Source: a virus. Taken from it: 64,000 nt of DNA. Where the stretch lies: positions 13,366-77,365 of IMG/VR virus record IMGVR_UViG_3300049432_000156; one strand, given 5' to 3'. Below the pieces are notes generated by a model. It searched no databases, was not told the origin of the DNA, and saw nothing but the letters and a program-made list of their open reading frames with translations. Positions 1 through 17,800 of the stretch are shown here, one piece after another. Position numbers and translations under genes: made by a program. The first letter of the stretch is position 1. Each line of letters starts with the position of its first letter.

Positions 1-58
1 CGCGAGCAACGGCACGACTGAAACGACAATCCCGGTTGGCTCCAGTGAGTTGTTAGAG
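1..58 (-). repeat. attC-like site 0 (truncated by window edge)
   Basis: Minus strand CTCTAAC (R'', 58-52), 5-nt spacer, then ACTGGAGCCAACCGGGA arm resembling the arm of site 2. Confidence 0.7.
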
Positions 59-244
59 GCGCTTCGGCGATGGCGCTACTTTGAAAAGAGACACGCAGCA
101 GTGGTGCTTGGTGAAATCGACATCGACGCACAGCAGGCGAAAGAAGTATCTGACCGTGCGTTGCATCAACTGCGGATTGTGGCGGATAGGGCAATCACGC
201 AAGCCTCTAACGACAAGCTCACCGACCGCCCACCGCGACAATGA
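2..244 (+). CDS. Cassette ORF, 5'-truncated hypothetical protein
   Basis: Frame open from window start; stop overlaps next ATG (ATGA) inside attC site 1. Confidence 0.6.
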   Translation, partial: ASNGTTETTIPVGSSELLEALRRWRYFEKRHAAVVLGEIDIDAQQAKEVSDRALHQLRIVADRAITQASNDKLTDRPPRQ

Positions 245-307
245 AAAACACTGACTCCAAGTCCAACCCGAAAGCGAATGGCGGTTCGGTGCAGCGCATG
301 GTTGGGC
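205..307 (-). repeat. attC integron recombination site 1
   Basis: Minus strand GCCCAAC-CATGC-GCT(G)CACCGA(A)CCGCC...GGCGGTCGGTGAGC-TTGTC-GTTAGAG: R''/L''/L'/R' boxes with two extrahelical bases. Confidence 0.85.
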
Positions 308-456
308 TGCGACGGTGCTCTTGCGGTCTCCGTCCAAAACTCACGCGATGGGAGGGCGGCGTAGAAATCGAATGCAGACTTGGCATGGACGAAGGATGCG
401 GAGACTACATTAATGAAGCGACTGAGGCTCAAGCCCGAGCCGCATGGAACCAGTAA
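241..456 (+). CDS. Lar-like (restriction alleviation) small Cys-containing protein in gene cassette
   Basis: LRRCSCG...C...C...EAQARAAWN pattern resembles the Lar family (LxPCPFCG...EAIxAWN). Confidence 0.6.
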   Translation: MKNTDSKSNPKANGGSVQRMVGLRRCSCGLRPKLTRWEGGVEIECRLGMDEGCGDYINEATEAQARAAWNQ

Positions 457-460
457 GTGA

Positions 461-547
461 GCCCAACGACAAAGCTCAGCGACCGGGACGCTGAGTAAAG
501 TATTAACCCCGCGGCGAATCCCGGTTCGCTGCAGCGATTGGTTAGGT
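461..547 (-). repeat. attC integron recombination site 2
   Basis: Minus strand ACCTAAC-CAATC-GCT(G)CAGCGA(A)CCGGGA...TCCCGGTCGCTGAGC-TTTGTC-GTTGGGC. Confidence 0.85.
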
Positions 548-567
548 AAAAGTAACCCAAAACCACA

Positions 568-783
568 ATGAAAAAAACGACCATAACTCAGGCCCAAGAG
601 GACGCCGTATATGCAATCGGCACCAAATCTCGCGTCAACCTGCACGAAATCCACCCGCGCGTTGCTCGTGCTTTGATAAAAAAAAGACTGATCGAAAAAC
701 AATGGAACTCGAACGATGCAAGCGGAGAAAAGCTGAAGCTGACGGACAATGGCAGATCGGCGTTCAAACAGCTTTTTACCTAA
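568..783 (+). CDS. Cassette ORF, small basic winged-helix-like protein
   Basis: 71 aa ending ...LKLTDNGRSAF; stop TAA supplied by the recombination core CCTAAC. Confidence 0.6.
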   Translation: MKKTTITQAQEDAVYAIGTKSRVNLHEIHPRVARALIKKRLIEKQWNSNDASGEKLKLTDNGRSAFKQLFT

Positions 784-796
784 CAGTACTTTAGAC
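778..796 (-). other. attI-like simple site heading the cassette array
   Basis: Minus strand GTCTAAA-GTACT-GTTAGGT; same L box/5-nt/GTT core layout as attI1 (CCCTAAA-ACAAA-GTTRRRY). Confidence 0.55.
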
Positions 797-818: not shown

Positions 819-1112
819 ATGACTCGCAAGCACTCAGCCAACGCACTGGCGGCAAAACAACGCAATCGGTTGGCCTCACCACCACCTGATTACTTCGACG
901 CGCCGGATTACTCCAAGCCCGTGCGCGAGATCGTTTACCGCGACCTGCTGAGCGGCGAGACGCACATATTCCTGTTGTTCATCCATCCGCGCCGGGTCGA
1001 TCAATTTGTTTGCCTCATCGACGGCAAGCCGTGGCTGGCCCAAGCCGGTTGGAGCCGCGTTTTAGCTGGACTCCGCAAGGCTGTGCCACGCTTCTCACAA
1101 CGACCTCAATGA
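819..1112 (+). CDS. Hypothetical phage protein
   Basis: 97 aa, ATGA-coupled to next gene. Confidence 0.7.
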   Translation: MTRKHSANALAAKQRNRLASPPPDYFDAPDYSKPVREIVYRDLLSGETHIFLLFIHPRRVDQFVCLIDGKPWLAQAGWSRVLAGLRKAVPRFSQRPQ

Positions 1113-1366
1113 ACGACGCTCTGTTCAGACCGTCCTCGATGCTCCGCCGGTCAAAGTGTCCGGGGAGCTTGGCGCTTGAATCCACGTTGCCGGAGAGCGT
1201 GGATGACGAGAGCGACGAATACCGAGCAGAAGGTCGCCTGCTACACGCGCTCATTGCAGACCCGTCTCTGCCGAGAGATGAACTAAAGCCGAGCCAGATG
1301 GATTTAATCGAAACCATCGAGAAGGAGGAACGGAATTTTCTCGAATCTAATCTATTCACCGTCTGA
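1109..1366 (+). CDS. N-terminal part of DUF2800/Cas4-like nuclease
   Basis: RPSSMLRRSKCPGS...AEGRLLH, typical N-terminus of phage Cas4-like exonucleases. Confidence 0.7.
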   Translation: MNDALFRPSSMLRRSKCPGSLALESTLPESVDDESDEYRAEGRLLHALIADPSLPRDELKPSQMDLIETIEKEERNFLESNLFTV

Positions 1367-2253
1367 TGAAAGATTACATCGAACTGGTGGAGGAAGCGTT
1401 CTCATTCAGTTGGGATGGCAAGGTGTTGTTCACCGGGCATCCAGACAGTGTGCTTGTGTTCCGCCTTGGTAATCCAGTCATCGTGCGTGAACGGAAGATG
1501 GGGTTCAAAGTGGTCCAAGCTGCTGACGCAAACCTACAGCTTCGTGCGTATATCGCGATGGTATCCGAAAAATATCAAGCGAGCGATTACTACGGCCAGC
1601 TCACCCAGCCGAGAGTTTCATCGAAGTCACACATTGTTTATTATACGCGAGAGGATGTCGCCAAAGCCCGCCTTGAAATAAAGGCTTTATGGGACGCAAG
1701 CCACGCGCCAGATGCGCCGCGCCGGGCATCGCACGACGCCTGCAACTTCTGCCGGGCGCAGACCGTGTGCCCCGAATTTCAGTCTTGGCTCGGTGCCATC
1801 GAGAAATCAAAGCACCTGCCGGTCGCTCAATGGACGGACGGCCAGATGAGTCTGTTTGAGGAACGGCGTGGAATGTTGGAGAAATTCCTCAAGGAGACCC
1901 ACAAGCAGATCTTCGCGATTAAACAGGCTGACCCGGAGAGATTGCCGGGGTGGAGTATAAAGCCCGGAGCTAACGTCCGAAGAGTCAACGACCTTGTCGC
2001 CGCCTGGTCGGCATTGCAGAGTTTGCTGTCCGACGGTTTTGGCAACGAAGCCGCGAAGCAATTCAGCAATTGCTGTGACATCTCAATCGGGGCATTGGAA
2101 GATTTGATTTACAACATGCTCAAGGATGCGGCAAAAAAAAAGAGCCAGAAAGAAGTCAAACGACTGGTCAACGATGCCCTGTCCGGGCTAATTGAACTGC
2201 GACAGAACAAGCCATCATTGGTCAAAGATGAGCGAACAGCACCAAACCGTTAA
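1366..2253 (+). CDS. PD-(D/E)xK Cas4-like (DUF2800-type) nuclease, C-terminal part
   Basis: GHPD...ERKMG, NLQLRAY, CNFCRAQTVCP motifs. Confidence 0.75.
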   Translation: MKDYIELVEEAFSFSWDGKVLFTGHPDSVLVFRLGNPVIVRERKMGFKVVQAADANLQLRAYIAMVSEKYQASDYYGQLTQPRVSSKSHIVYYTREDVAKARLEIKALWDASHAPDAPRRASHDACNFCRAQTVCPEFQSWLGAIEKSKHLPVAQWTDGQMSLFEERRGMLEKFLKETHKQIFAIKQADPERLPGWSIKPGANVRRVNDLVAAWSALQSLLSDGFGNEAAKQFSNCCDISIGALEDLIYNMLKDAAKKKSQKEVKRLVNDALSGLIELRQNKPSLVKDERTAPNR

Positions 2254-2410: not shown

Positions 2411-2761
2411 ATGAGCTTGGTTAAAAAGCTAGATGCCATCCCGCCCTGCCTCGTGCGTTTGATCGCCAGAGACCCACGGCATCCAGGCCGCCGGCTGCCG
2501 CTCTTGGCCATTGCCGAACGCGCCGGCTTGTCCTATGGAGCCACGAGGCGCCTGTCGCTGAAACGCTCGTGGGGCAATGTCACACCAAGGATCATTGATT
2601 CCTTCTGTAGCGCGTGCGGCGTCGACATTCTGCATCCGAAAAGCTCCGTTGATTATCTCAAAAGAACTCTGAGGAAACCAAACGGCTACAAACTGCTGGC
2701 CAACAAATCCGGTTCTGGATCGGCCGAGTCGGTGCTAAGATTATTGCAGACACTCCAATGA
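2411..2761 (+). CDS. HTH DNA-binding protein (XRE-like)
   Basis: LAIAERAGLSYGATRRL helix-turn-helix; coupled to recombinase. Confidence 0.6.
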   Translation: MSLVKKLDAIPPCLVRLIARDPRHPGRRLPLLAIAERAGLSYGATRRLSLKRSWGNVTPRIIDSFCSACGVDILHPKSSVDYLKRTLRKPNGYKLLANKSGSGSAESVLRLLQTLQ

Positions 2762-3738
2762 ATGACGAAAACAAAGCCCTGGAACAGAACCCCGTCCTCA
2801 AGCCGACGGTTGCCATATGGGTCGAGGAGTACAAGGCGCAGAATTTTCCAAGATTCGCGCAGAACACTCGAACCTTAGTGAACACTGAACTTGTCCGGTT
2901 TGCGCTATTCCTTGGACGCCGAGCAATCTCCGGGAACATCCTGCACGAGTACATGGCCGAACAACGTCGCAGGGTTGCAGGCGAATCGCTGATCAGGGCG
3001 ATGCGATGGACTGGCGCATTCCTGAAGTGGGCCGAGGAAATGGGCTACCTGGACAGGCGCTACTCGTCGCTGTCGATCTTCAAATGCAGTGCGGTCCTGG
3101 TCATTCACAAACCGCCGCAGCGCTTCACGCCCGAACAGTACGAAGCGATGAAGGAAGCGACCAAGGGCACCGGATGGCACTATGCCACGATCATGGCGTA
3201 TCGCACCGGCGCACGGTTGAGCGATGCGTGTCTGCTGAAATGGGAGAGCGTAAACCTGGAAGAGCTTTACATTCATTACCTGCCGTGGAAAACCAGGAAG
3301 TCGCAGCGGTATGCGACCTGCCCCTTTCAGGCTGGTGGGGATTTCCACAATGTACTCATTGAGCTAAACGCATCACGGGACAAGCGCCCGCACTGGGACC
3401 AGTTCGTCTGCCCGGAACTCGCGATGAGATACGCGACGCAATCAGACGTGTTCCAGAGCTATGAGCTGAGTCGTCAGTTCGGAGGCTACTGCAAAAAAAT
3501 CGGCGCTGCGCACCTGAGCTTCCATAAACTGCGTAACACGTTCATGGCGAAATGCGTTGACGGCTCAATCCCGTTCGCACAGGCGCGTCAGATTACGGGG
3601 CTTGGTAGCGACAGCGTGTTCATGCGATATGCGAAACCGAATCTGGATGTTCTCAGAGTCGCAATCGACAAAATTGATTCGCAAGACTTGCCTAAAGGAA
3701 CGTCGATTATTCAGTTGCCGCAAAATTCGGCAGCTTGA
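2758..3738 (+). CDS. Tyrosine recombinase/integrase family protein
   Basis: TGARLSD (R), WKT (K), FHKLRNT (HxxR), MRY (Y); no IntI-specific insertion. Confidence 0.85.
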   Translation: MNDENKALEQNPVLKPTVAIWVEEYKAQNFPRFAQNTRTLVNTELVRFALFLGRRAISGNILHEYMAEQRRRVAGESLIRAMRWTGAFLKWAEEMGYLDRRYSSLSIFKCSAVLVIHKPPQRFTPEQYEAMKEATKGTGWHYATIMAYRTGARLSDACLLKWESVNLEELYIHYLPWKTRKSQRYATCPFQAGGDFHNVLIELNASRDKRPHWDQFVCPELAMRYATQSDVFQSYELSRQFGGYCKKIGAAHLSFHKLRNTFMAKCVDGSIPFAQARQITGLGSDSVFMRYAKPNLDVLRVAIDKIDSQDLPKGTSIIQLPQNSAA

Positions 3739-8534: not shown

Positions 8535-8836
8535 AACCACTCGCAACAACAAAAACCGCCGCCACTGTAATGTGCCGTCCGCAATTCAGGATCGACTGCG
8601 TTGGCGAGGAAGGCCCTCATTCTGATATGGAGAAATATGGATGGGTGCCAAGTGGGGATGACATGCTTTATCTCACAGTGAAAACCTGTGTGAATACATG
8701 GCATTGCATGGTGCCAAGAGCCGCTATGAACGCCGTGTTCGAGGCGATCAACAAAAACGGTGTCACGATTGAATTTTGCGGTTCAGATAGCCGTCAATCT
8801 CCCATGCCGCTAGACCGCCAGCCTCCGCAGCCGTGA
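8531..8836 (+). CDS. Hypothetical protein
   Basis: Last ORF of + operon, converges on giant gene. Confidence 0.45.
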   Translation: MKPLATTKTAATVMCRPQFRIDCVGEEGPHSDMEKYGWVPSGDDMLYLTVKTCVNTWHCMVPRAAMNAVFEAINKNGVTIEFCGSDSRQSPMPLDRQPPQP

Positions 8837-11800
8837 CTGTCTCGGCCTTCTTGACGCGCCCCTGAGCAAGCTACGAGTTCTCAGCCCACGCCGCAGTGAC
8901 CTTGATCTGAACCCGGAGCGCACGCCGCGCGGAGAGCCAAGAGAGAGTCGGCTGCGCGAACCGCCGAATCCTCCGATGTCGGAAAAAGCGCCTGAGCTTT
9001 CGGATGGCACCGCGCCGAAGCCGCGTCCGCCGCCGAAGCTCCGGGCTGTAGCGCCGCCTCCACCCGTGCCGTAACGGCTGGCAATCTGGTTGAAGACAGC
9101 GTTGGCCTCATTCTGCCGTCCGAGCGCTTCAGGAGTCATACGTGAGTAAATCATTTCGCGTTCGCCGTCCGTCAGCACACGGGAGAACACGGCGGACTCT
9201 GGTGCCCGCGTCCGGATAGCGGAGATGATTGCCTGCTCAGGGTTCGGATTGCCCGACGCACGACTCTGCTCAACGGCTTTGGCAAAGGCTTCGTCCGCCG
9301 TGGACCAATCTCCGACTGCCGCCGCATTCAGAATCGTGTTGTAGAGCGGAGTCATGGGCGTGACGCGCAGATCATTGCCTGACGAAGGCTGCCTTCTCTT
9401 GGCTTCCAAACTCTCCGGCGTATTGGCGCGAAGCTCATTGGCGGCGTTGCGCATCTTGACCAAACCCTCGCGTGATGGCGCCCGGTTGATGAGCGCCCGC
9501 GCCACGGGCGAGTAACGCGCCAGGAAATCCACGGCTGGCCCGGCATCACGGCTCTGGTAAATCTTAGCCATTGTTTGAAGGAGGTCCGTGACGTAGTTCG
9601 CGCCGAAGATCGGATTGCGCAGACCGAGTTTACCTGGTGTATCCTTGAACCCTTTGAAGATGCTGCCCGCCGCACCCCAGAAGTTCGCCGCAACAGAGAG
9701 CAGAATCTTCCAGCGATCATCGTCATTGTCCGCGTCCAGGAAATCCGGTTGCGATGAGATCGTGTTGAACAACGCGTCATTCGCACGCTGCCCGGGAATC
9801 CTCGCAACCAACCCGGCTATGCCCGATGCGATCAGGAAGCCGAACACAAACGGCAGATAACGCACGTCACTGCCTTTCTGGCCGCGGACCTTGGCGAACA
9901 ATTCCTGCAACTTGTCCGTGTTCCAAAGAAACCATTGGCCGAGCACACCGCCAATCTGCCGTTCTTTGCTGCCCATGAAATACGTCGGCCTGCTCGTCGG
10001 CGTGCCCATGTTCGTGTCTTCGGCCATTTTGAACTGCAACGCATACCGCTGCGCCGGGGTCATAATCGGCGCTGTGCGGTTCCCGTTGGGATGCGTCTTG
10101 TTCCACCAATACTTCAGCATGATCAGGTCAACCGGATCGTTGTTTTCCAGGAACATGTTGCGAAGCTGGACAGCGGCTTTGCGCATCGTCAGTCCGACGA
10201 TGATTGGGTCTTTGCCCGTCAATTCGGCAGGTGACAGGAGTTCACCCTTGCCATCCGGCCCGATCAAAACACCGGAGAACCGTTTGTAGTTGTCGCCGTA
10301 TTCCCGATAGAGCCTTGCGAACTCCGGATCGTTCTCAAGCCGGCTGTCGAATGCGCGCATCGCCCGGACTTCCAAAGACCTTCCAAGGCTTTGCTCCTTG
10401 GCGATGGATTTGACATTGATCCAGTTATCGACGGAGCGCATGAAGCCATGCCGCAGTAAGACTTGTCCGGCGCGCGGGATCATCCCGATGTAACCGAACG
10501 CTTCCTTGCTCCCGCTCAGACTTGGGTCGGCGTGAATGTCACGGAACGCGGCCATTGCCGCTTTGAAGTTTTCCGCCAGCGTCCATTCCGCATTGGTGCC
10601 CATCGCTTCCCGGTAAGAGAACCGGTCGATCATGCCCATCCTGGCCTGTTGCTCTCGGTCGGCAGCTTCCTGAGCCATGCCGGATACGATCTCCGTTGCC
10701 GCTTCTCTCAGGTCGCGATTGTCCAACAGCCGTTTGACGGCGTTGGTCTTCATTGCACGCAGAGCTTTAGCGCCCGGGCGAAGACTGACAGGTTCGCCTT
10801 TCCACTTCAGATACGGCACTTTCAATTCCGCCAGAGCAGCAGTTTTTATGGCCGTGCGCACCCAATCTTTTACGAGATGGCCTGTCACCCACAACCAGCC
10901 GCCTTTGCGGATCTCCGCCGTCTTCAATGCCCACATGAACTCGCCTGAAACGCCGTTCGTGATCAAAGTCATCGGTGCCAGGAGCACGTTGCTGACGGCG
11001 AAATTCCACCACGGCATGAACATCCGTGACGCGATGTCATCACCGAAGAATCCCTCGCCGCGTTTTGCGATGTCGGTGACGTTGTTTAACAACCTGCCAA
11101 TGCGGGCGATGTCCCGGTTCACCTCCCAGATCGCCATCTGATGTTTCTGCACGGACTCGTTTCCGGAGACGATGGCTGCGTTCAGCTTGCGCCGGGCCTG
11201 CCAGCCGGTGCCACCGTAAGCGTCCTTCAACGTCTTGGACAACGCGGTCTTCTCCGCGAGTAACGCAGTGTTCAACGACCGCAGGCTGTCGCGGTACTTG
11301 ATGACGTAGAATTCTAGGGCATTGGCGCCTTTGCGGAAGGCATCAACCGGGTCGGTTGTTCCGTACCGGTACAACGTGCCAGGAGCAATCTTTCCGCCGC
11401 GCGGCTGGGTGAATTCGTTCTCATGCACGGTGATGTCCACATTGGCCGCGGTCGCTTTCCTTGCGTTATCATCCGAGACCTTCAGCATGAACTCGTTCAC
11501 TTCATCAATCAGCTTTCGTCGGACTTCGCCAGCAGTTGCCGGTGGCAGTGGCGGGTCAGAGCCTGCGATTCGCTGGTTATACCGATCTGCAATGAACTGC
11601 GCTAACTCATCCAGGCTGGCCGGCATCCGGCCCTCTCTGAACAAAATCTCGCGTTCGTTCCGTATCCGTTTGTAATCCTCAGCGAATTTGCCTTGGCCAA
11701 GCTGGAAATAAGGGCGCTCGTCTTCAAGGACGTGCCCGAGCACGACGCGTTTGTACCGGTCCCCGGCGCTGAGGAATTGGTCGATCTGATTATTCTCCCG

Positions 11801-14800
11801 GGCGCTCTTCCACAACGCCGGCAGTTCACGGCTGCTCGGTGGCAGAAATCGCGGTATCGTTCCCGGCCCGCGCGACAATGGCGCCCTGAACATCCTGAGT
11901 TCATGCTCCTTGATCATGGCCGGGTCCTCGGCCAGGGCGGATTCAAACCCGGCGCGCTGCGCCAGGCGGACAAGGTGTTGCTCGAATTCGTACTGCGTCC
12001 GGATCGCCGCCATGTCTTCTTTGGTGATGACGTGTCCGAATGGTGTGTGCTCGCCGACGTTGTATAACGTCTGTCCAGTGTGCTGCCGAGAATCGTGGAT
12101 GAACGAAGCCACTTCATCGCGCCAACGGTCCAGCGTCATCCCCGGATGCGACCGCATCGCCTTCAGGTTTGTGCCCCGAATGATTTCATCGAACTTCTTC
12201 TGCAACGCATTGTTGGTCTTGAGCGCAAGCGAATAAGCGTTGCCTGCCCTTATCATCTTTAGATTGAGAGCGCCGGGTATCCTTGAAGCCGTCGTTGCCG
12301 AGATCAATCCGTACTTTGATTTGGTAACGAAATTGAACCACTTGATCGGGTTGAACCAAGACGGATCAGTCAGCCGATCGTTGTCCGCGTGCGATGCCAA
12401 GATTTGAGCATCGATGTATTCCGCGAAGTGCATCCAACCAGCGGCTTTGATTGGATCGGCATCCGGTCGCGCCGCGTATTCAAGCCCGGCATCCTTCAGC
12501 GCGTTCAGTTTCAGGAGCAATTCAACCTGCCCACCAAACCGGTAATCCACTTCAACGTCAGCGCCGGTCAACGGATGCTCGTATGTGACAACGACACCGT
12601 CCACCGTGTTCTTGATGTCCTTGATTGCGCCGGTTGCACGCTGCATTTGCTTTCCGAAAGCCACGAATTCTGGGTTGGCATCATGTTCGTTTAGGAACTG
12701 CGCGGCTGCTTCCAGATTCGCCTTCTTTTCAGTCAACGTCTCGATGCGCCGGTCGAGCCGCCGCGCAGCGGCACTGAGCGCATCGGATTCGACTTGAGCC
12801 TTGGCATACTCCTTGAGAATCGCATTGAAACCGCGCGGCGTCCTCGAACGAAGATCGTTCAGGTAATCCGCGTTGAACCGCCGCAACGTTCCGTCGGCCG
12901 TCATCTGGACTTCGAGCAATGCCTGCCGCCAATCGCCAATCTGACGAAGACCCCAGAGCGTTGCCTCGATGACATCGCGCCCAGCGTTGATGGCCTTGTT
13001 GCCTTCCGGTGTTTGGATTTGGTCAAGATGCGTTGCCAATTGGCGGACCCAGGCGCGCACCGTGAGCGGTGGCGATAACCCAGGCGAACCAGTTTGAGTC
13101 GCGATAAGCTCAAGAACGTTTTCGCCAGGCCGTTCAGCCGTCAAAGCAGCGCGCCCGACCAGCCGGGTTATTCCACTCAACGCCCGTGCGTGCGCCACGG
13201 GTTGACTGAGCAAATCATTGAGTTCAGCGATGTGTTCGATGCCTTCGCCGATGACTGCGTTGGTGTGCGCTTTCTCTCCGACAGCGATTTGTTCGGTATG
13301 GATTTTGTCGATGATTTCTCCAAGCCGATTGGTCCGTTCCACCTGCGCTTCGTTGGTTTCCGGTGTGGCCGTGATGCGGTCGGTAATCGCCTGGGCATGA
13401 TCAACGGCAGCCGCCTCCACTTTACTCAGGATTTTCAGCTTCTCCGCCTGGTACAGGTTCCATTCAACAAAGGCATTGTGTGCGTGCTCAGCTTTCTTTT
13501 CCGGCGTGATGTTCGGGTCAGCCATGACCTGGGCGAACGTTGGGCCGGTCTCGCGGTGCGTCCCAATCCTGCCGCCGAACATGTCTTCAAGCTCACCGCG
13601 GATGCCGGCGGGCAAAGCTGTGTAGCGCGGAATCACCGACGACGGCACCAACCCCTTGTTGATGACCGACGCCATTGCGCGGAAGTATTCCGGTGTCCGG
13701 GTTTCCTCCAACGGTTTGACGTACTCCTCGACGGCCTGGCGGGATTCCAGGGCGGCTTGGGTGCCCCTGCTGCGGCTTATGCTGGGAGGTTCCGCGCGGG
13801 CCTGCCCGGCAAGGATGTCCCCGATTGGGCCAGCAGCGCGATCTGCCGGTCCAGTTCTTCCAAGGCCGGCACGTCCTTGTTCCGGAATGCCGACAACTCC
13901 CGGCGCATTGACTCCAAGTGGACCTTCACCAGGCCGTGCAGCTTCACCGGGTCGTTCGGGGCCAACGGCTGAAGAAGATTGAAAACTCTCGGCACGATTC
14001 CTTGTATTGTAATTTTGGAGTCGGTCATTGATTTCATTGAATGCCTCCCAGTTTGTAGTAAAAATCTTGTCCAATGTCCCCTCAAAAATCTCGACGGGTA
14101 TGTCCGCCGAGCGGAGTCTGGCATAGTTGTTCGCGAGTTCAGCGGTAAAATCGGCTCCTTCTGTCCTGGCGGCAACGTGGGTTATTTCGTGAATGAAGAT
14201 GTGCAGAGCTTCCGATGCCGCCGCTGCCGGGCTGCTCCTACCCGCGTTGGAGAACAATCCGAGGTTGAACCATATCGCCCGCATCGGCTTTACCATGTTC
14301 AAGCCGCGATAATTCTTGTCGAAAGAGATTCCGCCGAACCATCCGGTGATCGAAGCGTCGGTGAGTTGTTCGTACTCGCCTCCAACTTTCTTGCCCCATT
14401 CGCGCATGAAGTTCAGAAGGACATTGCCGGTCTCGGTGATCAGTGTCCCGGCGCGCGGAATGTCGTCAAACTCCACGGCGACGTTGTTGTGAAGATTCGG
14501 CACAGACGGGTCCATGTCGCTCACGTCGATTTCCGTTTTCTTCAGGTCAATCTCGCGCTTTGCCTCGAAAGTCTTTCTGACGTACTCCTGCTTGCTCTCG
14601 GTGATCGCGGTTCCGTCCCTGTAGTGAATGACGACATCCGGGCCTCGAAAATCCACGGACTCAATTTCCTTCGGCTTTCTGATCGGAGGCGGCGGTTCGG
14701 ACTTCTTTCGGAAATAACGCCGCTCCATGTCGGCCATCTCTTCCGGCGTCCAATCTTTCATCGGATCAACCTTCTCCAATTGCCGAATGCTGGTGAACGC

Positions 14801-17800
14801 TTCCTTGGCCTGAAGCAGTTCCTGCTCAACCGCCATCCGTTTCAGGAACGTGTACATCGCGTCCACGTCCTCTTTGATCGTCGCGCGCCAGCCCTCCCTT
14901 TGATTGTTGAATGGGTACGCCGCGTTGTCCGTCTTCACCTTCGGGCGGACATCCAGGATGAGATTGTACGGAAGCTTCTTGTCGTTCCAGCCATAAGGAT
15001 CAGCCTCGAATTGTTTCAGCCCGGCGCTGAGAACATGCGTTGTCGGGTAGTCTCTCTTTTCTCGCGGGTCAATGTAGAGGTCGATCCTGCCCCATCCGAA
15101 ATTGAATTCGTTCTCCTTCTGCCAGCCTTCAAGTTTAACGCCGATTGGAAGTTCCGTGCCGTTGAATATCACCCGCACCGGGCCGATGAGCGGTTGAGTC
15201 AGGAAGCTCGGATAGCTGTTGAAGTAAATGGATTTCTGTTCCCCGTAGGCATCGGTGTAGTTTTCCGGAATCTTAACCGTGACCGTCGTTCCGTTCGGTT
15301 CATCGGTGCGCTCGGTCTGGATTTTGAATTTCGAGCTTCTGATTTGATCGGAGCTTGCATCCACCACCGATTTCAGCCCGTTCCGGTTGCTCTCAACCCG
15401 GATGTGTTCGGAGCCAAGAATGAACGCCATCTTCGCAAGGCCAAGCCCGCCCGAAGTATTTTCCAGCGAACCTGTCTTGTAGGTTCCGCCGATGGTGAAA
15501 AAGGCCGTGCGGATAATCTCGGGCGTCATGCCAGTGCCGGTATCCTTCACCATCAGAGTCCGATTGCTGTAATCGGTTTTGATCTCAATAGTTCCTGGAT
15601 TCTCGTAGGTCGCCCCGGCGCTGCGAGCCGTATCGAATGCGTTTTGGAGAAGTTCCTTGGTCGCCACTTCGACAATTGGCTTGCTGTACATCTGCGGACC
15701 TACCAGAGCCATCAACTGCTTCTTGTTGATGTCCAGTTCGATTTCGACATCGCCAGGACCGGCGCGCAGGATATGCGAACCTTTGTCCTTCAACTCGTCG
15801 AACTGCTCGTCGATTGCGGCTTGGGTGCCGCGTTCATGTCCCGTATGAATGTAATCTTTAGCCAGCCCGTAAGAGATAGAAGTGTCTGTGCCGAATACTG
15901 CGTTTATACCATGCTCGATAGCGTAGTCCTTGACTGCCCGTCTGGCCGTATTGGTTAAAGGTTGAGTAGCATCAACCAACAATGTGTTGCTTTTCCTGTC
16001 GAAAACTCCCCTGGCGTAGCGTTTCTTGTCCAATTGATACTCAGGAACCCCTTTACCCGGCTTGAAGTCTTCACCCAATAATCGCCTTGCGGTGAATTCA
16101 TGCTCGAACATGCTGACTGGTGTAATATCACCTTCGGGTGATACCCACATACCGGACGGACCTTCAAGGCCGGCTTGAGTGTCATGCGATAGGAATGACG
16201 TTTCTGGCGTCACATCGTATTTCCCATCCAGAATCGTCCGTTGGAGAATGTCCGCCTGCGTGCGTAGGCCGGGGACACGCTGCCGGATGGCATCAAAGAT
16301 GACCGCCAATATCTGCCGCACCTTGGACAGGAATGCGTCCTGTGATGCGAGGATTTCCTTGGCCTGACCCCAAATGCCTTGGCGGTCGCGCGCAAACCGA
16401 TCCGTCATCATGTGCGCGAAGAACTCCTCTGAACTCGACCAGTTGTAGAACTTATTGTCGATGCCTTCGTCGATGAACCGGCGGTATCCCATCTCGCCAG
16501 CAGCCAGTTTTTGAAGGTCAGCCAAGTCCTTGCCGGTTGCCGTTTGGAGCGCTCTGGCAATCGCATCATCACGCCATCGCTTCACGTTCAGCCGGTCGCT
16601 GTCCTGAACCATCTCCCAAAGCGGGTGAAAGAATTCGTGGGCGCCGACAAATGGATCACGATAACGCGCAACCTCAATAATCTGGTCCACTGGATCGTAG
16701 AATCCGGCAAGTCCACGATCTCGGCCTTGAATACCATCGACCAACCGGAATCGAATCTGACGACCATTGAGATAGCCAGCTACCGGACTGTTCAGAATAT
16801 CCCGCAGAACGGCTCTGTGTTCTTCATCCAACCCGTTTAGCGGATGCTCAACCAAAGCTCGCGCCTCTTGAATGTTCGCGGCTTCTTGAGAGTTCTGTGC
16901 GGTGCCAGGAATTCCTTCCCAGCCTTTTGGAACAGATGCTTGCAGAGGTCGTTCGTATGAATTCCTCAAACTGAAGATGTCAAAGGATTGACCTTCCGGC
17001 GTAACGCCTGTTGCGCGTCCTCTGGCATGAAGCGCCAACTTCAAATCTCTCGGCGATGTTCCTTCGGTGTCTGTGAATGGTCTGGCCTTTTCCGCCGACT
17101 CGACCATCCGCACCCAGCGTTCGTTATTCTCCAACGCGAAAATCCGCCCTTCGCGGAAGTCCTTGGCGAATTGTCTTGCCGCTTCCTCTGTGCGGAATGT
17201 CGCCACGTCCAAGCCTCGCAAATCTCCTTCCAATCCGGCAACGACGCGCCAATTTCGGGTCACTTGATCTTGCTTGTAATCCGACCACACCTGCCCCCAT
17301 CGCCTGTTCTGCGTATTCCACGACCAAATATCTGAGGCTCGTTCTCTGGCTGCATCCGCTTTTGTGCGCTCGTATGCGGCTTCCAACGCTTGTTTAATTC
17401 CTCCGGCTGCATCGACATCCGTCTGAGTCAATCCGTAAGGCAGCGGCAAATCGCTTAGTCCGCCGCCTTGAGAGATTGCCATCTGCCACTCCAAATCATT
17501 CCCGTCCTTCAACCGGCGCAGGTCATTGACCAAGGCGTCTGCCGCAGCTACCGGATCAGGAAGCTTTTTGATCTCCTCGTTCTCTCGCAGCAATTCGTCG
17601 CGGATGCCGTTCCAGAAAGCGTCATCAAGTTCTTCGGGTCGGCGGCCAAGGAGTTGTTCGACAAGTTGCGGATTCTTCTCGCGAAGGTCATCGAAAGCCC
17701 GGCGCGTGATGTCCAGCATCGGACGGCGGCCGCTCACCGGTTGGCCGACTTTCTTCTGCACCTTCGGCAGTTCTTCCAGGGGCACTGGCTGTAGCGGCGT

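What the first reader, a model, noticed from the sequence alone, without database searches (positions are those of the whole stretch)
1..796. Integron-type cassette array with attI-like site inside a phage genome, with no IntI gene
Seen in sequence: three attC sites on the minus strand (1-58 partial, 205-307, 461-547). The two complete sites have R''/L''/L'/R' boxes and two extrahelical bases. The start core of each cassette is the exact complement of that cassette's own R'': GTTAGAGGC 52-60 with GCCTCTAAC 203-211 (9 bp), GTTGGGCT 301-308 with AGCCCAAC 460-467 (8 bp), and GTTAGGTAAAA 541-551 with TTTTACCTAAC 774-784 (11 bp). Established knowledge: this is the footprint left when circular cassettes are integrated by IntI. 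The array begins at GTCTAAA-GTACT-GTTAGGT, which has the layout of the attI1 simple site. Inference: the phage keeps a landing pad and borrows a host integron integrase to acquire or shuffle small accessory genes.
Basis: partly seen in the sequence, partly recalled or inferred. Interest (0 to 1): 0.9.

Follow-up and report, generated by a model that had tools for sequence, protein, structure and literature searches.

The report
Phage integron cassette array, genes inverted
A roughly 77-kb soil phage carries a genuine integron-type row of small swappable gene cassettes but no integron integrase, and its cassette genes lie on the strand opposite to the one used in bacterial integrons, which points to a phage-adapted form of this gene-capture system.

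Summary
Window 1-796 is the right end of a ~2.2-kb array of seven attC sites that begins 1.4 kb upstream of the window.

A covariance model built only from bacterial attC sites lying beside bona fide IntI genes hits window 460-550 (E 2e-13) and 204-310 (E 9e-12). The two bulged bases have the same spacing as in attC_aadA1 of plasmid R100. Each cassette is flanked by its own 8-11-bp inverted cores.

The same attC family fills chromosomal integrons of Verrucomicrobiota and Planctomycetota. It also forms arrays in at least eight other viral contigs. Two of those carry an IntI gene 22-31 nt beyond the equivalent junction, one of them in a complete phage genome. This phage and its relative G009 have no IntI.

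In the phage arrays the genes lie on the attC bottom strand. This is the reverse of the bacterial arrays.

CALINs in phages are published (Qi et al. 2023). I found no paper on the inverted coding. This scan has noted similar inverted-gene phage arrays on other DNA. Use of a host IntI in trans is plausible but untested.

The parts
1..62 (+). 3' half (L''-R'' arm and core GTTAGAGGC) of attC unit u4, bottom strand. The unit starts upstream of the window at record 13319.
   Evidence: R1 hit at window 1-62, truncated at the 5' end. The whole unit scores 35.9 bits with the bacterial-only model R2.
1..244 (+). Cassette gene c4 (start ATG at record 13355, just upstream of the window). It reads across the cassette boundary 210|211 and stops in the loop of the next attC, at an ATGA overlap with c5.
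   Evidence: ORF list. Codon-usage score +0.10, against -0.27 and -0.07 for the overlapping minus-strand ORFs.
204..310 (+). attC unit u5, bottom strand. R' box CTCTAAC at 205-211 (crossover A210|C211), bulged T285 and C292, R'' box GTTGGGC at 301-307.
   Evidence: R1 94.9 bits; R2 56.9 bits, E 9e-12; fold.
241..456 (+). Cassette gene c5 (71 aa, Cys-rich). Its start codon lies inside the loop of its own attC.
   Evidence: score +0.10. No Pfam or PHROG match.
460..550 (+). attC unit u6, bottom strand, the best preserved. R' box GCCCAAC at 461-467 (crossover A466|C467), bulged T525 and C532, R'' box GTTAGGT at 541-547.
   Evidence: R2 63.6 bits, E 2e-13. Fold z-scores -3.2 (+ strand) and -3.5 (- strand).
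568..783 (+). Cassette gene c6 (71 aa). Its TAA stop is formed by the last three bases of the cassette (CCTAA|C).
   Evidence: score +0.26. No relative found in the 5.8 billion-protein search, which sees only relatives sharing exact 5-residue words.
774..796 (-). Array end. The core TTTTACCTAAC is complementary to 541-551, followed by an attI-like junction (minus strand GTCTAAA-GTACT-G|TTAGGT).
   Evidence: Same spacing as attI1 of R100. Same position as the junctions 22-31 nt upstream of intI in G003 and G005.
819..1112 (+). 97-aa ORF that starts 34 nt after the junction, in the place that intI occupies in G003 and G005. It is not an integrase.
   Evidence: no family match.
1366..2253 (+). 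PD-(D/E)XK / DUF2800 (Cas4-like) nuclease, the right-hand syntenic anchor of the array slot.
   Evidence: Pfam DUF2800 and PDDEXK_1. The homologue in G009 follows that phage's array.
2758..3738 (+). Phage tyrosine integrase (326 aa). It is not an integron integrase.
   Evidence: PF00589 only. No TIGR02249 hit. No similarity to the phage IntIs. It lacks the IntI-specific insertion.

Best explanation
Window 1-796 is the attI-proximal end of a genuine integron-type gene-cassette array. The array has seven attC sites over about 2.2 kb and sits in the early recT-to-nuclease operon of a roughly 77-kb tailed phage. The host is probably a Verrucomicrobiota or Planctomycetota bacterium.

The sites belong to the attC family of the chromosomal integrons of those bacteria. 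Their recombinogenic bottom strand is the window's + strand. Each cassette runs from the C of one RYYYAA|C box to the AA of the next.

The array was built by IntI-catalysed insertion of folded single-stranded cassettes at the attI-type junction at 783|784 (inferred from the footprints). The phage itself has no IntI, so by current terminology it is a CALIN. Any further gain, loss or shuffling would need an IntI supplied in trans, most plausibly by the host (inferred, not shown).

Unlike bacterial cassettes, the genes lie on the attC bottom strand. Each attC therefore precedes its own gene, and the start codon often lies in the attC loop. The cassettes are read as part of the phage operon, running towards the attI end.
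For: Site identity:
- Model R2, trained only on 62 bacterial attC sites from arrays beside IntI genes, hits the window sites at E 2e-13 and 9e-12. In that training set 99.4% of cells pair, 10 of 12 L-stem pairs show compensatory changes, and 0 of 500 shuffles reach the observed value.
- The bulge geometry is identical to attC_aadA1 of R100. It follows the published rule that the bottom strand reads 5'-RYYYAAC(R')...EHBs near L''...GTTRRRY(R'') (PMC5027507).

Footprint:
- Cassette-specific inverted cores of 8-11 bp, against 3-6 bp for non-partners.
- The same pattern is seen in bacterial arrays and other phage arrays.

System context:
Of the 80 that were listed, 56 come from Verrucomicrobiota, Planctomycetota or Lentisphaerota genomes.
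- Dense arrays are found there. IntI scores above the curated cut-off in 5 of 5 such genomes.
- The units lie upstream of intI and on its strand in 7 of 7 loci. Phage contigs G003 (IntI 274.9 bits, cut-off 265) and G005 (230.9 bits, DTR genome) have the same polarity.

No IntI here:
-. G009, the relative with terminal repeats, has an array in the same slot and also no IntI.

Gradient:
- R2 scores fall away from the attI end: 63.6, 56.9, 35.9, 22.4, 38.8, 24.9, 17.6.

Inverted coding:
- Codon usage favours the + strand ORFs.
- By ORF coverage and GC3-GC2, cassettes in the four clearest phage arrays (G000, G005, G003, G002) score 21 on the same strand as the attC bottom strand and 3 on the opposite strand. 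All six phage arrays scored give 24 and 5. The nine bacterial arrays give 1 and 45.
- Pfam-backed genes agree. The C5 methylase, Mom and N6/N4 methylase cassettes of G003 lie on the bottom strand. Bacterial Ank, Imm50, glyoxalase and SMI1 cassettes lie on the top strand.
Against: - No direct evidence of recombination. The only public run holding this DNA is kept as assembled contigs and shows no joints.
- No close relative was found that could show recent gain or loss of cassettes.
- The record is linear and CheckV rates it 73% complete, so an IntI on a missing part cannot be strictly excluded. However, G009 has terminal repeats, is 77.7 kb long and is rated 72%, which suggests the estimate is too low.
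- Four of the seven sites are decayed (broken stems, deletions).
- The attI-like junction is short and only weakly conserved between the four phages compared.
- The first bulged base is C or G, not the canonical G. C is also the consensus of the bacterial family.
- The cassette proteins have no recognised relatives in the searches run, so their coding status rests on codon usage, operon layout and analogy.
Confidence: 0.8

Rival explanations
1. Fossil array. An ancestor phage carried its own IntI beside the attI, as G003 and G005 do. The gene was lost or replaced, and the array is now a static set of ordinary phage genes that no longer moves.
For: - IntI lies 22-31 nt from the junction in G003 and G005, while other genes occupy that place in G000 and G009.
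- Units u0, u1, u3 and u4 have deletions or broken stems.
- The genes are knitted into the operon by ATGA overlaps.
Against: - The two sites nearest the junction are as good as bacterial sites (R2 63.6 and 56.9 bits, against 31-63 bits for R1 on the bacterial training set).
- They keep perfect 8-11-bp partner cores.
- G000 and G009 share the slot but no cassette.
- Hosts carrying IntI and this attC family are common.
- This reading is not exclusive of the best explanation. It differs only on present-day activity.
Confidence: 0.4
2. A piece of the host's chromosomal integron picked up by imprecise prophage excision, as described for Vibrio anguillarum prophages. On this reading it is not a phage-adapted structure.
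For: - The attC family is that of bacterial chromosomal integrons.
- Such captures are published (PMC9892861).
- The phage has a lysogeny-type integrase.
Against: - Gene orientation is the reverse of bacterial arrays.
- The array lies inside an operon between recT and its nuclease, and in the same slot in the distant relative G009.
- The cargo of phage arrays is phage-typical: Mom and orphan methylases.
- The phage integrons have only 22-31 nt between attI and intI, which leaves no room for a divergent cassette promoter.
Confidence: 0.05
3. The phage's own tyrosine recombinase (window 2758-3738), not an IntI, recombines these sites.
For: - It lies on the same strand, 2 kb downstream of the junction.
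- Earlier notes of this scan report integron-like phage arrays run by non-IntI recombinases on other DNA (unchecked).
Against: - It is a generic phage integrase without the IntI-specific insertion.
- It is unrelated to the IntIs that accompany this attC family in all nine loci examined.
- G009 has no homologue next to its array.
Confidence: 0.07
4. The repeats are not recombination sites. They would be intergenic RNA or DNA hairpins (terminators, translational-coupling or processing signals) that only resemble attC.
For: - They are co-oriented with the genes.
- Start codons lie in five of six loops, and upstream ORFs end at ATGA or TGAnATG overlaps inside them.
- G-T wobbles favour folding of the coding strand.
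Against: - The same family sits beside bona fide IntI genes in canonical polarity in bacteria and phages.
- The bulges have the canonical attC geometry.
- Cassette-specific inverted cores are unexplained by an RNA role.
- The scan found no excess of terminator-like sites.
- A secondary, co-opted role in translation remains possible.
Confidence: 0.03

Closest known systems
CALIN (cluster of attC sites lacking an integron integrase; IntegronFinder terminology, Cury et al. 2016, PMC4889954)
   Same: Two or more attC sites in one orientation bound cassettes, and there is no IntI nearby or anywhere in the record.
   Different: - It is carried by a phage.
- It ends in an attI-type junction.
- Genes lie on the attC bottom strand, so each attC lies upstream of its gene.
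Integron components in phage genomes (Qi et al. 2023, Front Microbiol, PMC9892861)
   Same: The paper reports CALINs and a few complete integrons in sequenced phages. Methyltransferase cassettes were noted, and phage attC sites recombined with IntI1.
   Different: - The published phage CALINs that are described have two or three sites, and their genes are described as in the typical orientation.
- The published complete integrons are mostly captured pieces of host elements.
- Here there is a seven-site array of one homogeneous attC family, a conserved slot in the phage operon, inverted genes, and relatives with a compact phage-borne intI-attI.
Sedentary chromosomal integrons of Verrucomicrobiota and Planctomycetota (loci L034, L069, L078, L091, L102, L169-L176 fetched here)
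   Same: - Same attC sequence family and structure (R2 consensus almost identical).
- Same T and C bulges.
- Same 10-12-bp cassette-partner cores.
- Same attC-attI-intI polarity.
   Different: - Bacterial cassettes carry their genes on the top strand, diverging from intI (45 opposite strand to 1 same strand).
- The gap between intI and the nearest detected attC unit is several hundred nt, against 22-31 nt between intI and the array junction in the phages.
- The cargo is bacterial (immunity proteins, glyoxalase, ankyrin).
Class 1 integron In2 of plasmid R100 (attC_aadA1, attI1, intI1), used here as a control
   Same: - Bulge spacing: T, 6 nt, G or C, 8 nt, GTT on the bottom strand.
- attI layout CTAAA-5 nt-GTTA.
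- intI lies on the strand that carries the attC bottom strand.
   Different: - 60-nt site against 87-107 nt.
- The first bulge is G, not C.
- The gene lies on the top strand and is expressed from Pc.
PeSL promoter-stem-loop modules of T4-type phages
   Same: Repeated hairpin elements flank small accessory genes in a plastic region of a phage genome and are thought to mediate gene shuffling.
   Different: - PeSLs are promoter-terminator modules that recombine by homology.
- They have no RYYYAAC/GTTRRRY cores, no bulged bases and no dedicated integrase.

Membership tests
attC site (integron cassette recombination site) | Outer boxes R' 5'-RYYYAAC-3' and R'' 5'-GTTRRRY-3' on the bottom strand | tested here: met
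   u5 has CTCTAAC (position 1 is C rather than a purine) and GTTGGGC. u6 has GCCCAAC and GTTAGGT. Rule taken from PMC5027507.
attC site (integron cassette recombination site) | Imperfect hairpin (L'/L'') with extrahelical bases on the L'' arm, at the canonical distance from the core | tested here: met
   T285 and C292; T525 and C532. The spacing T, 6 nt, C, 8 nt, GTT equals that of attC_aadA1 in R100. In the bacterial family 99.4% of cells pair, with compensatory changes in 10 of 12 L-stem pairs.
attC site (integron cassette recombination site) | Recognised by a covariance model trained on bona fide attC sites | tested here: met
   R2 (62 bacterial sites beside IntI genes, no phage sequence) gives 63.6 and 56.9 bits, E 2e-13 and 9e-12. 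IntegronFinder's own model could not be run.
attC site (integron cassette recombination site) | The cassette's first bases (after G|TT) are complementary to its own inverse core, not to the neighbour's | tested here: met
   Partner pairs match over 9, 8 and 11 bp in the window and 10, 10 and 9/10 upstream. Same-unit and non-partner pairs match over 3-6 bp.
attC site (integron cassette recombination site) | Recombined by an integron integrase as a folded bottom strand | not testable with these tools
   This needs an attC x attI assay. Only contigs of one run were available and they showed no joints.
Complete integron | intI gene encoding a tyrosine recombinase with the IntI-specific additional domain | tested here: not met
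   No TIGR02249 match in the 77-kb record. The only tyrosine recombinase lacks the insertion. The record may be incomplete.
Complete integron | attI site adjacent to intI at the head of the array | tested here: inconclusive
   The junction at 783|784 has the attI1-like layout and is positionally equivalent to the junctions next to intI in G003 and G005. No intI follows it, and sequence conservation is weak.
Complete integron | Pc promoter reading into the cassettes on the attC top strand | tested here: not met
   No promoter-like site near the junction. Coding potential lies on the opposite strand.
CALIN | At least two attC sites in an array with no integron integrase nearby | tested here: met
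   Seven co-oriented sites. No IntI in the record.
Integron integrase IntI (for window ORF 2758-3738) | Score above the TIGR02249 cut-off and presence of the IntI-specific insertion | tested here: not met
   No TIGR02249 hit at E <= 0.01. There is a gap where IntI1, seven bacterial IntIs and both phage IntIs have the insertion.

The most novel reading that the evidence does not exclude
Phages of Verrucomicrobiota and Planctomycetota maintain their own version of the integron.

- It uses the host-type attC family and, in some lineages, a phage-encoded IntI placed 22-31 nt from attI.
- The cassettes are 'inside-out': the gene lies on the attC bottom strand, the attC lies upstream and often carries the start codon, and the cassettes are read towards attI and intI as part of a phage operon.
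- The cargo includes counter-defence genes (Mom, orphan methylases). This would make it a phage counterpart of bacterial integrons, which act as banks of anti-phage defence.
- IntI-less members such as this phage would exchange cassettes by using the IntI of the infected host.
Probability: 0.45. Interest if true: 0.85.

Novelty: new variant of a known kind. Interest (0 to 1): 0.74.

Why it matters
Integrons are the classic bacterial device for capturing and shuffling genes. They have recently been shown to stockpile anti-phage defence systems.

A phage-adapted integron would have the same sites and enzyme family but inverted cassettes read from phage promoters. The cargo seen so far includes Mom and orphan DNA methylases. 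This would mean both sides of the phage-host arms race use the same recombination machinery, and possibly the same enzyme in the same cell.

It would also show that the 'correct orientation' rule of integron biology reflects where the promoter lies and is not intrinsic to cassettes. It would give a way to find new small counter-defence genes: take the ORFs lying between attC sites in phage genomes.

For this window the practical point is narrower. The array is a real CALIN with two well-preserved sites, which makes trans-mobilisation by a host IntI directly testable.

Tried and rejected
- Rfam, gathering thresholds, whole window: no hit. None of the Rfam families matched these sites, so this says nothing either way.
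- Relatives by the flanking nuclease: none in viral contigs or metagenome contigs.
- Relatives by RecT: twelve viral loci, at most 61% identical, none with attC units. The closest (L004) has the recT-nuclease slot without units even with filters off.
- Sequencing runs: one soil DNA run, kept as contigs. No RNA holder was listed.
- Laying those contigs gave no joints. The contigs break inside the repeats, and other contigs share attC arms with different flanks. This does not count as evidence of activity.
- G001 against G006: essentially the same DNA over the aligned parts (99.98-100%), including the array, so uninformative on cassette turnover.
- Cassette proteins: no Pfam or PHROG family. c6 has no relative in the 5.8 billion-protein search. 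No tblastn match to any fetched locus.
- My impression that c5 resembles Lar-type zinc-ribbon proteins got no support and is dropped.
- Promoter and terminator scan: counts no higher than in shuffles.
- IntegronFinder and HattCI could not be run. R2 was used as a substitute.
Full report
**What is in the sequence**

The window is bases 13366-77365 of a 77,365-bp IMG/VR virus record. I fetched the 13 kb upstream as L003.

They are the last three of a series of seven co-oriented units at record coordinates 11976-12009, 12134-12238, 12811-12922, 13066-13151, 13319-13427, 13569-13675 and 13825-13915. In window coordinates the last three are 1-62 (cut by the window edge), 204-310 and 460-550.

Each unit reads, on the + strand:
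- RYYYAAC, then GAC(A/C)AAGCTCAGCGACCGG,
- a variable loop,
- CCGGTTCGCTGCAGCG, NNTG, then GTTRRRY.

The units lie in different reading frames, or outside ORFs, so the conservation is at the DNA level.

On an alignment of six units the proposed stem pairs in 79% of cells. With the 3' partner slid by 1-3 columns the figure is 27-44%. Two bases are bulged on the 3' arm: T285 and C292 in the first complete site, T525 and C532 in the second.

**Polarity, checked against a real integron**

I read the In2 integron of plasmid R100. On the coding (top) strand of aadA1, the extra bases of attC_aadA1 lie on the 5' arm. The bottom strand therefore carries, on its 3' arm, T, 6 nt, G, 8 nt, GTT.

The phage units carry T, 6 nt, C (or G), 8 nt, GTT on the 3' arm of the window's + strand.

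Nivina et al. 2016 (PMC5027507) give the rule. The bottom strand reads 5'-RYYYAAC (R') ... extrahelical bases near L'' ... GTTRRRY (R''), and cleavage is in the AAC of R'.

The cassette boundaries are A210|C211, A466|C467 and A783|C784.

**Cassette footprint**

The core that follows each unit is the exact complement of the core that precedes the next unit:
- 9, 8 and 11 bp in the window;
- 10, 10 and 9 of 10 bp upstream.

Boxes of the same unit, or of non-partner units, share only 3-6 bp, with one case of 8. The same pattern (10-12 bp) holds in bacterial arrays of this family and in other phage arrays. One pair there carries a compensatory change, GATATGCCGC with GCGGCATATC.

This is the known signature of cassettes that were circular and were opened at G|TT.

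**An independent model**

Rfam gave no hit, and IntegronFinder is not available here. I therefore built a model that owes nothing to this phage.

Of the 80 listed, 56 come from Verrucomicrobiota, Planctomycetota or Lentisphaerota.
2. My first model (R1, built from the phage units) finds dense arrays there, for example 14-16 units in 6.7 kb.
3. Five of five such genomes encode IntI above the curated TIGR02249 cut-off, at 362-448 bits.
4. In seven of seven IntI loci the units lie upstream of intI and on its strand. This is the arrangement in R100.
5. Sixty-two of these bacterial sites were aligned (A3). In that alignment 99.4% of cells pair, 10 of 12 L-stem pairs show compensatory changes, and no shuffle out of 500 reaches the observed value.
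6. Model R2, built from them alone, hits window 460-550 at 63.6 bits (E 2e-13) and 204-310 at 56.9 bits (E 9e-12).

The scores fall with distance from the right-hand end: 63.6, 56.9, 35.9, 22.4, 38.8, 24.9, 17.6. This is what an array that grows at one end and decays at the other would show.

**The end of the array and the missing integrase**

The array ends at TTTTACCTAAC|AGTACTTTAGAC. On the minus strand this is CTAAA-GTACT-GTTA. attI1 of R100 reads CTAAA-ACAAA-GTTA.

The whole record has no match to TIGR02249. The one tyrosine recombinase (window 2758-3738):
- matches only the general phage-integrase family;
- shows no similarity to integron integrases;
- lacks the IntI-specific insertion that IntI1, seven bacterial IntIs and two phage IntIs all have in the alignment.

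**Other phages**

The left-arm pattern occurs in nine IMG/VR contigs. R1 finds arrays of 3 to 12 or more units in eight of them, all co-oriented within a contig. These contigs share almost no proteins with each other. The exception is G001 and G006, which are essentially the same DNA over their aligned parts.

- **G003** has terminase, portal and major head genes. Its IntI scores 274.9 bits (cut-off 265), and the start codon lies 31 nt after the junction GGCGGCTAAC|AGTG.
- **G005** is a 52-kb genome with direct terminal repeats, rated 100% complete. Its IntI-like gene (230.9 bits, catalytic residues and insertion present) starts 22 nt after GTCGGGGAAC|TCTT.
- **G009** is 77.7 kb with terminal repeats and shares 14 proteins with this phage. 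It has an array in the same slot between recT and the DUF2800 nuclease, with different cassettes and no IntI.
- **L004**, the closest RecT relative, has the slot without any unit.

The junction in the window is therefore where attI sits in this family. The presence of the array and of IntI varies between lineages.

**Is it a phage?**

The record encodes a large terminase (Terminase_6N), a DnaB-type helicase, RusA, a RecT-like annealing protein, a virion structural protein and a 3,669-aa protein.

Its length (77.4 kb) matches that of G009, which has terminal repeats and which CheckV rates at 72%. The 73% estimate for this record is therefore probably too low. A missing part cannot be excluded.

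**Inverted genes**

- A codon-usage score trained on the long genes of this record favours the + strand ORFs of the array (+0.10 to +0.38; one at -0.06). It disfavours the long minus-strand ORFs that run through the sites (-0.07 to -0.27).
- The + ORFs form one operon with recT and the nuclease. Start codons lie inside the loops of five of six sites, and there are ATGA or TGAnATG overlaps.
- I scored cassettes by ORF coverage and GC3-GC2. In nine bacterial arrays the likely gene lies opposite to the unit strand (the canonical arrangement) in 45 cassettes and on the same strand in 1, with 13 unclear. In G000, G005, G003 and G002 it lies on the same strand in 21 and opposite in 3. All six phage arrays scored give 24 and 5.
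- Pfam-backed genes agree. In bacteria, the ankyrin, Imm50, glyoxalase and SMI1_KNR4 cassettes lie on the top strand. In G003, a C5 cytosine methylase, a Mom-family protein and an N6/N4 methylase lie on the bottom strand, co-directional with intI.

In + strand terms a phage cassette is: C, then the attC (often holding the start codon), then the gene, then RYYYAA. The attC precedes its own gene. The 22-31 nt between attI and intI in G003 and G005 leave no room for a divergent cassette promoter.

**How it most likely works**

Shown:
- the sites are members of a bona fide attC family;
- their polarity;
- the cassette footprints;
- the position of the junction;
- the absence of IntI in the record;
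- the gene strand.

Inferred:
- cassettes were inserted one at a time at 783|784 by an IntI acting on the folded + strand;
- they are expressed from upstream phage promoters;
- with no IntI of its own, the phage can only gain or lose cassettes when an IntI is present in the infected cell.

The last point is feasible, because likely hosts encode IntI and use the same attC family. Whether this still happens, or the array is a fossil of a phage integron like that of G003 or G005, I cannot tell. The two attI-proximal sites are intact. The distal ones are not.

**What is known**

Qi et al. 2023 (PMC9892861) screened 10,705 phage genomes. They reported 3 complete integrons, one In0 and 17 CALINs. 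They noted methyltransferase cassettes and showed that five attC sites from virulent phages recombine with IntI1. A phage CALIN is therefore a known kind of thing.

Seven searches of the paper library found nothing on phage arrays whose genes are systematically inverted, or on a compact phage-borne intI-attI.

Earlier notes of this scan describe similar inverted-gene phage arrays on other DNA (e1-5214829, e1-5925966). These are unchecked AI notes. I reached the same reading from my own data.

**Verdict**

The array is a new variant of a known kind.

Noticed in passing
L003 9007-9482 (upstream of the window; record coordinates): Two more attC units of the same family lie on the opposite strand (R2 62.1 and 39.3 bits). 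They flank one cassette with 11 of 12 inverted cores (GTTAGGTGGATG / CATCCACCTAAa). Here the likely gene (86 aa, MKTAIVII..., + strand) is in the canonical bacterial orientation. It has an 84%-identical relative (P0003) on a 1.6-kb JGI contig. The neighbouring RusA gene ends inside unit m1.
   Followed up: partly
Record 12816-12821, 13071-13076, 13324-13329, 13574-13579 (window 209-214) and 9478-9473 (minus strand): All five ORFs that read across a cassette boundary do so in the same frame, AAC GAC = Asn-Asp. Their C-terminal tails (NDKAQRPAN, NDKLTDRPPRQ, NDQAQERREGKL, NDQANLKPYGK, NDPS) are encoded by the next cassette's attC arm. With two open frames available this has about a 1 in 16 chance.
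   Followed up: no
Window 229-251 and 556-578: The two cassette genes in the window share a start context, CCCA..C.ACAATGAAAAA.AC. It lies inside the attC loop in one case and just after the attC in the other. There is no Shine-Dalgarno motif.
   Followed up: no
L030 7126-8876 and 10634-11374 (phage contig G003): Cassettes of a phage-borne complete integron encode a C5 cytosine methylase together with a Mom-family protein (a two-gene cassette) and an N6/N4 methylase. These are DNA-modification functions that typically protect phages from restriction.
   Followed up: partly
L003 13079, 13887, 13912 (Logan contigs of run X1): Other contigs of the same soil sample match attC arms and diverge at, or within a few bases of, the unit edges. 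The sample therefore holds further cassettes of this attC family, from the host or from other phages.
   Followed up: no
Window 8810-19819 (minus strand): A single 3,669-aa ORF, by far the largest gene of the phage. I did not examine it.
   Followed up: no
loci L034, L078, L102, L061, L069, L087: Long attC arrays of this family sit in MAGs labelled Klebsiella or Bifidobacterium. The labels are probably binning errors, since the family is otherwise found mainly in Verrucomicrobiota and Planctomycetota.
   Followed up: no
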